Part shown: piece after piece, positions 27,001-30,000 of the stretch
How the letters are laid out: each line of letters begins with the position of its first letter
Position numbering within the stretch: the stretch's first letter is position 1
Origin: Escherichia coli
GTDB taxonomy: Bacteria; Pseudomonadota; Gammaproteobacteria; Enterobacterales; Enterobacteriaceae
Reading direction: 5' to 3' (one strand)
Assembly (NCBI RefSeq): GCF_041248615.1
Contig: NZ_CP158426.1
Length of the DNA: 64,000 nucleotides
Made by a program: the position numbers

Positions 27001-30000
27001 CGCTGATGCGCCGCCGCCAATGGCGCTGCCTATACTTCCGACAATCCCCACCATTGCCTGCTTAAGCAGAATTTCTGTCATCATGGACAGCACGGAACGG
27101 GTGAAGCTGCGCCAGTTCTGCTCACTGCCGGTCAGCATCGCCGCCATATTCTGCGCAATACCATCAAAGGTCTGCGTGGCAGCACTTTTAACCTGCGACA
27201 TACTGTCCGTGGCACTCTCTTTCCACTCGCTCCAGCCGGACTTGAGGCCAGCCATCCAGCTCCCGCGAAGCAGGTCTTCAGCTGCCCAGGTCTTTTTCTG
27301 CTCTGACATGACGTTATTTAGCGCCAGCGGATTATCGCCATACTGCTCCTTCAGACGCTGTTCCGTGGCGTCCCGCGCTGCCTGCCGGTCAGTAAGCCCC
27401 CGGTTTTTCGCCTCAATGGCTGCCCGTTTTGCCCGTTGTTGCTGTGCGAACTTATCCGCCTGCTGCGCCAGCGCGTTCAGGTGCTCCTGATACGTGACCT
27501 TATCGCCAAGTACAGCCAGCTGGCGTTTGTACTCCAGCGTCTCATCTTTATGCGCCAGCAGGGATTTCTCCTGTGCGGATAGCTGGCGACGTTGTGCCGC
27601 CTCCTCCAGTACCGCGAACTGATTTTCCGCCTTCCACAAATCCCGGCGCTGCTGGCTGATTTTCTCATTCGCTCCGGCATGCTTCTCCAGCGTCCGGAGT
27701 TCTGCCTGAAGCGTCAGCAGGGCAGCATGAGCACTGTCTTCCTGACGATCGCCCGCAGACACCTTCACGCCGGACTGTTTCGGCTTTTTCAGCGTCGCTT
27801 CATAATCCTTTTTCGCCGCCGCCATCAGCGTGTTGTAATCTGCCTGCAGGATTTTCCCGTCTTTCAGTGCCTTGTTCAGTTCTTCCTGACGGGCGGTATA
27901 TTTCTCCAGCGGTGTCTGCAGCCGTTCGTAAGCCTTCTGCGCCTCTTCGGTATATTTCAGCCGTGATGCTTCGGTATCGCTCTGCTGCTGCGCATTTTTG
28001 TCCTGTTGACTCTGCTGTTCAGCCTTCTTTCGGGCGGCTTCAAGCGCAAGACGGGCCTTTTCACGATCATCCCAGTAACGCGCCCGCGCTTCATCGTTAA
28101 CAAAATAATCATCCTTGCGCAGATTCCAGATGTCGTCCGCTTTCTTAAACGCAGCCTCTGCCTTAATCAGCATCTCCTGCGCGGTATCAGGACGACCAAT
28201 ATCCAGCACCGCATCCCACATGGATTTGAATGCCCGTGCTGTCCTGTCTGCCCAGGTTTCCAGCGTGCCCATGTTCTCTTTCAGGCGTCGGGTCTGGTCA
28301 TCAAACCCTTTCGTTGCGGCCTCGTTCGCCGCCTGCAATGCCCCTGCCTCATCGCCGGAACGCTGCAACTGAGCAACATACGCAATCTGCTCCGCCGTCA
28401 CGTTATGGAACTGGCGCGCCATCGCCGTCAGCCCCGACGTCGGGTCTGTGGTCAGCTTCCCGAAGGCTTCAGCGACCTTGTCCACCTCCACGCCGGATGC
28501 AGAGGAGAAACGCGCCACACTCTGGCTGATGGACGCAATCTGAGCCTCACCGCTTACCCCCGCCTTAACCAGTGCGCTGAGTGACTCGCTGGTCTGGTTA
28601 AACGTCAGCCCTGCCGCCTGCCCGGCTCTGGACAGGACCAGCATACGATCTGCCGTCAGACCCGACTGATTGCCGGAAAGGACCAGCGTTTTGTTGAAAT
28701 CGGACAGGGTTGAGTTGCCCTGATACCAGGCATACGCCAGCGCACCGGTCGCCACCGCCAGCGAGGTGGCCCCGACCATCGGCAGGGTGATCGCACCGGC
28801 AAGCCCCCTGAACATGGGGATCATCCCGCCGAAGGAGTCCTTCACCTGACCGCCCTGTTGCAGCAGGATCAGCCACGGACTCTGCCCGCCTGCAAGCTGT
28901 GTGGCCACGTCGGTGAACTGTGCAGGCAGCATACGCATGGCGGCTTTATACTGTCCGACGGAAATCCCCGCTTTCTGTGCAGCCAGCGCCTGCCGGTTCA
29001 TTGACTGTTCAACGACTGCCGCTGTTTTTTTCGCATCACTTTCCGTACCGGAAAAATGACGCCTGACTCTGGCCATCTGCTCGTCAAACCTGGCCGCATC
29101 CAGACTTAAATCAACGACCAGATCGCCTACCGGTTCAGCCATACCGGACTCCTCCTGCGATCCCTTCTGATACTGTCATCAGCATTACGTCATCCTCCGT
29201 CATGTCCGCCACATCCGGGGATGCAGGGATAACTTCATTCCCGTCCGGGCCAAAGCGGACGCCTCCGGCAAGCCCTGCCGCTTTCTGCATCAGCACATCA
29301 TCTTCAGGCTCTTCGTCAGCCTCGCGCCGGTTCAGCAGACTGAAATCCAGCGGATGCATATCCGGATCGCTGAAAAACAGGCTGAGCACGGTGTACGTCA
29401 GCCCGGAAAAATGCATATCCAGCAGAACATCATGAAAATAATGGGTACTGTAAAAGCGGTGCCAGTCGGCATACTCCGTGGATGACATCCCGGCAAGCAT
29501 GGCGCGCCAGTCGGGTCGCCCCATCTCACGCGCCAGTTTCAGGGCAAAACTCAGCTCACCGTCGAACACTTTCCCGCAGAAACAGGCTCTGCAGGCCCGG
29601 CGTCCTCTGCCTGTTCAGAGGCATTATTCACAACAAACTCAGACATACCGGACAGACGCATTACCACATTTTCAGCCTGAGCAATTGCCTCTGTGGGCCA
29701 GGTGGTAAGCACTTCCTGCTCAATCTGTTTAACGGCTTCATTCATGGACGGCATCTTTGTCTTCTGCGGATGGCTATGCCACAGGGACATCGCCACCAGA
29801 AAAGCACCGGTTCTGACGAGATCTTCCACGCTCACCTGTCGATTGAGACTGGATCCCGCCTGTTCTGCCTGTCGTTTCAGCAGGGCGAGATGCTCAATAC
29901 GCTGCAGGGCTGACAGTTCAGAAAGCGTGACGCTCACACCGTTATATTCAAATGATTCGGTTTTCAGGAACATCGCTGACTCTCCGGATTAACTGTCGGT

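What the first reader, a model, noticed from the sequence alone, without database searches (positions are those of the whole stretch)
29551..29580. Conserved GGGAAAG slippery site for the G/GT programmed -1 frameshift
The lambda heptamer G GGA AAG is present on the minus strand at the end of G, and the -1 frame continues for 144 codons with no start of its own. This supports an intact tail chaperone pair.
Basis: partly seen in the sequence, partly recalled or inferred. Interest (0 to 1): 0.25.

Follow-up and report, generated by a model that had tools for sequence, protein, structure and literature searches.

The report
Lambda-type G/GT tail chaperone frameshift site
This is the well-known ribosome "slip" site that lets a lambda-like prophage of E. 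coli make two tail-assembly helper proteins (G and the longer GT) from one stretch of DNA; it is intact here and ordinary.

Summary
GGGAAAG lies on the minus strand at 29575..29569, in phase G GGA AAG in gene G (29973..29551, 140 aa), five codons before the G stop. The -1 frame then stays open for 144 codons, ending at the TGA at 29137..29135 that overlaps the start of the tape-measure gene H.

The fused product is 279 aa, the same length as lambda gpGT and 93% identical to it. The G part is 86% identical and the T part 100%. It matches the curated G and T family models at equivalog level.

The window is the chromosome of E. coli NRZ14408, in a lambdoid prophage integrated at icd. Tail genes Z to J are colinear with lambda and 78-100% identical over their aligned parts.

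In ten related phages a slippery heptamer sits at the same position: GGGAAAG, AAAAAAG or GGAAAAG. This holds even where G is only about 40% identical.

One caveat concerns "no start of its own". A GTG codon opens the -1 frame, and RefSeq and the old lambda record use it as the T start. It has only a background-level Shine-Dalgarno match.

The parts
29551..29973 (-). Gene G, tail assembly chaperone (140 aa), the zero-frame product
   Evidence: ORF. It is 86% identical to lambda gpG over 140 aa. Pfam PF06894 E=7.5e-55 and TIGR01674 equivalog at 198 bits against a cut-off of 74. RefSeq names it gpG, phage tail assembly chaperone G.
29569..29575 (-). Slippery heptamer G GGA AAG, the site of the programmed -1 frameshift
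   Evidence: Position and phase. It is identical in sequence and position to lambda. A slippery heptamer occupies the same position in all 10 related phages examined.
29135..29569 (-). T segment: 144 codons plus stop in the -1 frame, expressed only as the C-terminal part of GT
   Evidence: It is 100% identical to lambda T in protein, with 5 nucleotide differences that are all synonymous in this frame. PF06223 and TIGR01715 equivalog at 186 bits against a cut-off of 77.
29135..29973 (-). Whole GT coding unit: G codons 1-135, a -1 slip, then 144 T codons, giving 279 aa
   Evidence: Fused translation, alignment with lambda, and the family alignment.
29551..29568 (-). Dual-coding stretch after the heptamer. 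It encodes the last 5 G codons plus stop in the zero frame and the first T codons in the -1 frame.
   Evidence: The zero-frame stop lies 5 codons after the heptamer in 10 of 11 family members.
29989..30729 (-). Gene V, major tail tube protein, the partner of the T domain
   Evidence: It is 94.7% identical to lambda V over 246 aa. RefSeq CDS.
26593..29142 (-). Gene H, tape measure protein (849 aa), the partner of G. Its ATG overlaps the end of T (ATGGCTGA).
   Evidence: It is 95.5% identical to lambda H over the full length. Sequence and RefSeq CDS.
29491..29561 (-). Predicted downstream RNA hairpin (inner stem 29500..29535). A role in frameshifting is not established.
   Evidence: MFE z-score is -2.09, with 3 of 200 shuffles folding as well. 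The consensus fold of 11 homologues has 19 pairs, of which only 1 shows a compensatory change. The invariant pairs lie in the conserved LAREMGRPDWRAMLAGM coding block, so they carry no independent weight.

Best explanation
This is the G/GT tail-assembly-chaperone pair of a lambda-like prophage, with the same programmed -1 ribosomal frameshift site as phage lambda.

Most ribosomes translate G (140 aa) to its TGA. A small fraction slip back one base on G GGA AAG: the P-site tRNA-Gly moves from GGA to GGG, and the A-site tRNA-Lys moves from AAG to AAA. These ribosomes then read 144 further codons in the -1 frame and make the 279-aa fusion GT.

By analogy with lambda, the G parts coat the tape-measure protein H. 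The T domain of the rare GT recruits the major tail protein V to start tube polymerisation. Neither protein ends up in the virion.

Shown here: sequence, phase, frame openness, homology, gene order and positional conservation. Inferred: that slipping occurs in this strain, and at the lambda ratio.
For: Site and frames:
- The heptamer is in the correct phase, and the -1 frame is open for 144 codons, ending in an overlap with the H start.
- The GT unit is 94.2% identical to lambda in DNA with no indel. The heptamer is at the same offset, and the 88 nt around it are identical.

Homology and selection:
- GT is 279 aa in both phages. The T part is 100% identical, and its 5 nucleotide differences are all synonymous in the -1 frame, so purifying selection acts on that frame.
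- Curated models match far above their cut-offs: PF06894 plus PF06223 and the TIGR01674 plus TIGR01715 equivalogs.
- Gene order Z-U-V-G-T-H-M-L-K-I-J is colinear with lambda, at 78-100% protein identity over the aligned parts; the C-terminal part of J is diverged (53.7%).

Family conservation:
- All 11 sequences carry a slippery heptamer at the homologous position: GGGAAAG in 4, AAAAAAG in 2 and GGAAAAG in 5. The G-part identity falls to 38-47% and the T-part to 55-75%.
- Depositors of related records annotate this as a frameshift. Phage LLS has a joined CDS and a misc_feature reading 'minus-one programmed translational frameshift site GGAAAAG'. The HK225 and mEp213 notes read 'downstream half of translational frameshift product'.

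Initiation signal:
- The nominal GTG of T has an SD duplex of only -4.3 kcal/mol, placed immediately next to the start codon. The background mean is -3.6, and the neighbouring tail genes range from -5.9 to -10.8.

Mechanism and role in lambda:
- The G:GT ratio of about 30:1, G binding H, and T binding V are taken from the review PMC5009743. It cites Levin et al. 1993 and Xu et al. 2004, 2013 and 2014.
Against: - No expression data exist for this strain, so frameshifting itself is inferred by homology.
- A GTG codon at 29569..29567 could in principle start an independent T. RefSeq and J02459 annotate it that way.
- The prophage carries some decay: sitD is split by IS1414 and there are three small pseudogenes. 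Inducibility is therefore not guaranteed, although no tail gene is visibly broken.
- Motif plus long -1 frame is not statistically exceptional in this window: 6 of 55 in-phase heptamers qualify.
Confidence: 0.95

Rival explanations
1. T is an ordinary stand-alone gene translated from its own GTG at 29569..29567. This is how RefSeq/PGAP and the original lambda record annotate it, and the heptamer would be incidental.
For: A GTG opens the mechanical ORF. RefSeq lists 'phage tail assembly protein T' as a separate CDS at these coordinates. J02459 lists T as 144 aa.
Against: - The SD duplex is -4.3 kcal/mol, about background, and abuts the start codon. Every neighbouring tail gene has -5.9 to -10.8.
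- In relatives the same position does not keep a start codon: the first -1 codons are GCA, GTC or GCC. A slippery heptamer is always kept.
- Depositors of other records start their 'T' CDS at varying downstream points or join it to G.
- Lambda work summarised in PMC5009743 describes T sequence only as part of gpGT.
Confidence: 0.03
2. The pair is a silent remnant in a defective prophage. The sequence is intact by recent descent but is no longer expressed or selected.
For: The prophage carries an IS1414 insertion in its sitD cargo gene, a truncated DUF1364 gene and two other small pseudogene fragments.
Against: - All tail genes from Z to J align full-length with lambda without frame disruption.
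- Differences from lambda in T are all synonymous.
- Integrase, excisionase, repressor region, replication, lysis, terminase and head genes are all annotated as intact.
- Near-identical G/T regions occur in viable phages such as ev099 and PhiR11_1, at 98.4%.
Confidence: 0.04
3. Mechanistic variant: efficient slipping needs the conserved downstream hairpin (29491..29561) as a stimulator, as in many viral -1 sites, rather than the heptamer alone.
For: Predicted structure has z = -2.09. A consensus hairpin is shared by 11 homologues, with one compensatory GC/AU pair.
Against: - The strong inner stem starts about 27 nt after the heptamer, further than I recall stimulators usually sit (from memory, not checked here).
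- Eighteen of 19 pairs show no compensatory change, and they lie in a strongly conserved peptide block, so conservation is explained by coding.
- My recollection of Levin et al. 1993, not re-read here, is that no simple downstream structure is required in lambda.
Confidence: 0.1

Closest known systems
Bacteriophage lambda G / GT (J02459 9711-10549). Programmed -1 frameshift at G GGA AAG (Levin, Hendrix & Casjens 1993; Xu, Hendrix & Duda 2004, 2013, 2014, as cited in PMC5009743).
   Same: - Same heptamer at the same offset, and the same G stop 5 codons later.
- Same lengths: G 140 aa, T 144 codons, GT 279 aa.
- Same overlap of the T stop with the H start, and the same flanking genes V and H.
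- T is 100% identical and the DNA is 94.2% identical.
   Different: - Nineteen amino-acid substitutions, all in G (86% identity). They cluster at residues 40-53 and 98-122, which suggests a recombination patch.
- The head module of this prophage is only 52-67% identical to lambda.
Escherichia phages ev099, PhiR11_1 and PhiR42_1 (Lambdavirus-like isolates)
   Same: The region from the V end, through G and T, to the H start is 98.3-98.5% identical. G and T lengths and the heptamer are the same.
   Different: These are free phage isolates rather than a chromosomal prophage. There are a few substitutions in the G C-terminal region.
N15 / HK225 / mEp213 / LLS-type and CP-1639 / Stx-phage-type G-T pairs
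   Same: Same family, same V-G-T-H gene order, and the frameshift site at the homologous position.
   Different: They use other slippery heptamers: G GAA AAG or A AAA AAG. The T domain is shorter (113-117 codons) in the N15-like group and CP-1639 but longer (149-152 codons) in the two Stx phages. G is only 38-47% identical.

Membership tests
Lambda-type G/GT tail assembly chaperone with programmed -1 frameshift | Two overlapping reading frames located between the major tail protein gene and the tape measure gene | tested here: met
   The order is V (29989..30729), G (29551..29973), T (29135..29569), H (26593..29142), all on the minus strand.
Lambda-type G/GT tail assembly chaperone with programmed -1 frameshift | [quoted passage not shown] | tested here: met
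   G GGA AAG at 29575..29569, with offset mod 3 = 2, lies 5 codons before the G stop.
Lambda-type G/GT tail assembly chaperone with programmed -1 frameshift | The downstream frame is -1 relative to the upstream gene, is open from the slip site, and lacks an ATG or a Shine-Dalgarno signal comparable to neighbouring genes | tested here: met
   The -1 frame is open for 144 codons. The first ATG is at codon 16, with SD -2.3. The GTG at the first codon has SD -4.3, against -5.9 to -10.8 for seven neighbouring genes. Independent initiation cannot be formally excluded by computation.
Lambda-type G/GT tail assembly chaperone with programmed -1 frameshift | Sequence homology of both halves to gpG and gpT | tested here: met
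   PF06894 at 184.6 bits and PF06223 at 52.5 bits. TIGR01674 at 198 bits and TIGR01715 at 186 bits, both equivalog models above cut-off. Identity to lambda G and T is 86% and 100%.
Lambda-type G/GT tail assembly chaperone with programmed -1 frameshift | The frameshift site is conserved in position among diverged relatives | tested here: met
   All 11 sequences have a slippery heptamer at the aligned position, while G identity drops to about 40%.
Lambda-type G/GT tail assembly chaperone with programmed -1 frameshift | Actual production of a G-T fusion at a low fixed ratio (about 1 GT per 30 G), and its requirement for tail assembly | not testable with these tools
   This is known for lambda (review PMC5009743). 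It needs protein analysis of this strain.

The most novel reading that the evidence does not exclude
The most novel reading not excluded concerns two conserved features after the heptamer. One is the zero-frame stop exactly 5 codons downstream in 10 of 11 relatives. The other is the GC-rich hairpin at 29500..29535. Either could be selected to tune the G:GT ratio rather than being a by-product of T-domain coding. That would add a cis-regulatory layer to a frameshift usually described as driven by the heptamer alone.
Probability: 0.08. Interest if true: 0.25.

Novelty: already known. Interest (0 to 1): 0.06.

Why it matters
It matters little beyond annotation quality. The site is the textbook lambda G/GT recoding signal, here in a lambdoid prophage found in related form in most complete E. 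coli genomes: 4,407 of 5,426 have a match to this tail region.

The practical point is that RefSeq annotates T here as a free-standing GTG-initiated gene rather than as a ribosomal-slippage join with G. Proteomic or functional analyses that use that annotation would therefore miss the real 279-aa GT product.

An intact pair is one of many requirements for this sitABCD- and iss-carrying prophage to make functional tails.

Tried and rejected
- Motif statistics as evidence. GGGAAAG is mildly over-represented (15 against 7.95 expected). Heptamer plus long -1 frame also occurs at five other places in the window; of the two checked against the annotation, one reads into the next gene (sitB into sitC) and one lies in a frame antisense to J. 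I rejected this as a stand-alone argument.
- Downstream stimulatory RNA structure. A single-sequence fold (z = -2.09) and an 11-sequence consensus fold gave a hairpin with only one compensatory pair. Coding conservation confounds it fully, so I do not claim it.
- Upstream internal Shine-Dalgarno stimulator of the dnaX type. Nothing better than background lies in the 20 nt before the site.
- Solved structures. There is no PDB relative of GT by sequence at E <= 0.01.
- Independent T initiation was considered and judged unlikely (searches show that the start codon is not conserved while the slippery site is).
- The large protein databases, structure prediction and metagenome scans were not used. 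The identity with lambda made them unnecessary.

Full report
**Observation**

On the minus strand the sequence reads ...CCT GTT TCT GCG GGA AAG TGT TCG ACG GTG AGC TGA.
- The heptamer GGGAAAG occupies 29575..29569.
- It lies in the 140-codon ORF 29973..29551 at offset 398 (mod 3 = 2). The zero frame therefore reads G GGA AAG, the X XXY YYZ phase, five codons before the stop.
- Re-reading the last G opens GTG TTC GAC GGT GAG CTG ..., which runs for 144 sense codons to the TGA at 29137..29135.
- That stop overlaps the ATG of the next gene at 29142 (ATGGCTGA).
- Upstream of the heptamer the -1 frame is closed after 15 codons, by the TGA at 29617..29615.

**Is it more than chance?**

The motif alone is weak evidence.
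- GGGAAAG occurs 15 times in the window, against 7.95 expected.
- I enumerated all in-phase X XXY YYZ heptamers in open frames of at least 100 codons. Six of 55 are followed by at least 100 open -1 codons; the median is 8.
- I checked two of the other five against the annotation. CCCTTTT at 14436 reads into the next annotated gene (sitB into sitC). TTTTTTC at 21588 lies in a frame antisense to J.

The real evidence is comparative.

**What it is**

The window is 100% identical to E. coli NRZ14408 chromosome NZ_LT599825.1. The region is a lambdoid prophage.
- It is bounded by a partial icd copy (about 10662..10829) on one side, and by integrase, excisionase and the intact icd (61193..63699) on the other.
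- RefSeq names the two ORFs 'phage tail assembly chaperone G' and 'phage tail assembly protein T'.

Comparison with lambda (J02459):
- The 839-nt G-T unit aligns without indels at 94.2% identity. The heptamer is at the same offset, and the 88 nt around it are identical.
- The fused product is 279 aa in both phages. All 19 differences lie in the G part (86% identity).
- The T part is 100% identical despite 5 nucleotide changes. All 5 are synonymous in the -1 frame, which is direct evidence that this frame is the one under selection.

Family models:
- Pfam gives PF06894 (lambda TAC protein G, residues 1-125) and PF06223 (minor tail protein T).
- NCBIfam gives the equivalog models TIGR01674 and TIGR01715, at 198 and 186 bits against cut-offs of about 75.

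Context:
- The tail module Z-U-V-G-T-H-M-L-K-I-J is colinear with lambda at 78-100% protein identity over the aligned parts, with no broken frame; only the C-terminal part of J is diverged (53.7%).
- Both binding partners described for lambda are therefore present: H for G, and V for T.

**Conservation of the site**

I took ten related phage loci spanning 98% down to about 70% DNA identity. I located the G stop, the -1 open frame and any slippery heptamer in each.
- Every locus has a slippery heptamer at the homologous position.
- Lambda, PhiR11_1 and an Stx2a phage have G GGA AAG, as does the window.
- CP-1639 and an Stx1a phage have A AAA AAG.
- HK225, Kp4865-4, LLS, mEp213 and Eeyore have G GAA AAG.
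- In 10 of 11 sequences the G stop is 5 codons later.
- G-part identity to the window falls to 38-47%, and T-part identity to 55-75%.
- The first -1 codon is not a conserved start (GTG, GTC, GCA or GCC), but slipperiness is conserved.
- The LLS record explicitly annotates a joined CDS and a 'minus-one programmed translational frameshift site GGAAAAG'.
- The HK225 and mEp213 records call the second ORF the 'downstream half of translational frameshift product'.

**Own start?**

- A GTG is the first -1 codon. The ORF lister, RefSeq and J02459 all use it.
- Its best anti-SD duplex is -4.3 kcal/mol. The background mean is -3.6, and the duplex abuts the start codon.
- Z, U, V, G, H, M and L have -5.9 to -10.8.
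- The first ATG is codon 16, with -2.3.

Independent initiation is therefore unlikely, though sequence alone cannot exclude it.

**Mechanism**

Shown here: phase, frames, homology, gene order and conservation.

Inferred from lambda (review PMC5009743, citing Levin et al. 1993 and Xu et al. 2004, 2013 and 2014):
- A few per cent of ribosomes slip -1 on the heptamer, giving a G:GT ratio of about 30:1.
- G and the G part of GT bind the tape measure H.
- The T domain binds V and nucleates tube polymerisation.
- Both chaperones leave the finished tail.

From general knowledge: AAG decoded by the single E. coli tRNA-Lys (mnm5s2U34) is slip-prone. The legend of that review's Figure 4 mentions this modification.

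**Downstream structure**

- A 131-nt fold gives z = -2.09.
- The 11-sequence consensus fold has a GC-rich hairpin (window 29500..29535) inside a longer stem.
- Only 1 of 19 pairs shows a compensatory change. The invariant pairs lie in the conserved LAREMGRPDWRAMLAGM block.

I do not claim a stimulator.

**Comparison and novelty**

This is lambda G/GT itself in a close relative. All sequence-testable defining features are met. Only actual protein production is untestable here. It is already known.

Related tail regions are found in 4,407 of 5,426 complete E. coli genomes. The one useful remark is that the RefSeq record does not annotate the slippage join.

**Verdict**

The feature is ordinary. 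Interest is 0.06.

Noticed in passing
window 10662..63699: The whole feature sits in a lambdoid prophage of about 52 kb integrated at icd in E. coli NRZ14408. A partial icd duplicate lies at about 10662..10829. Excisionase and integrase lie at about 60967..62335, and the intact icd at 62449..63699.
   Followed up: partly
window 12743..17515: The iron/manganese transporter operon sitABCD lies between the partial icd copy and the prophage's tail-fibre end, so it appears to be cargo. sitD is split by an IS1414 (IS256-like) transposase gene at 15935..17143.
   Followed up: no
window 41442..41735 and 43526..44608: Two further apparent cargo genes lie among the late genes. iss (increased serum survival lipoprotein, bor-like) sits next to the lysis cassette. 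An ompC-type porin gene sits between the lysis genes and the antiterminator Q.
   Followed up: no
window 20307..24215 (J), repeat at 21229..21554: The tip attachment protein J is 1302 aa, against 1132 in lambda. Residues 1-836 are 93% identical to lambda, and the C-terminal receptor-binding part only 54%. Between them is an insertion of about 175 aa containing a 174-nt (58-aa) tandem duplication, with 1.9 copies at 90% identity.
   Followed up: partly
window 31710..39683 versus 24279..31707: There is a sharp mosaic boundary. Head and packaging genes (nu1 to FII) are only 52-67% identical to lambda proteins. Tail genes Z to I and the N-terminal part of J are 78-100% identical. The switch falls between FII and Z.
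   Followed up: partly
window 29551..29973: Within an otherwise 95-100% lambda-like tail block, G is the outlier at 86% identity. Its substitutions cluster at residues 40-53 and 98-122. The adjacent T has only 5 silent changes. This suggests a small recombination patch inside G.
   Followed up: no
window 29135..29569: RefSeq/PGAP annotates T as a stand-alone GTG-initiated CDS (WP_000459457.1), with no ribosomal-slippage join to G. The 279-aa GT product is therefore absent from the record's proteome.
   Followed up: yes
window 18188..20254: The side-tail-fibre region is one uninterrupted 688-codon ORF in the mechanical list. RefSeq splits it into a pseudogene N-terminal fragment and a 'phage head spike fiber domain' protein. 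Only the N-terminal 260 aa resemble lambda stf, at 60%. No lom or tfa homologue was found by tblastn.
   Followed up: no
window 20688..20702: Two GGGAAAG copies on opposite strands lie one base apart inside J, at 20688..20694 (+) and 20696..20702 (-). Together they form a 15-nt palindrome-like element. Overall the heptamer is about twice as frequent in the window as shuffles predict, at 15 against 7.95.
   Followed up: no
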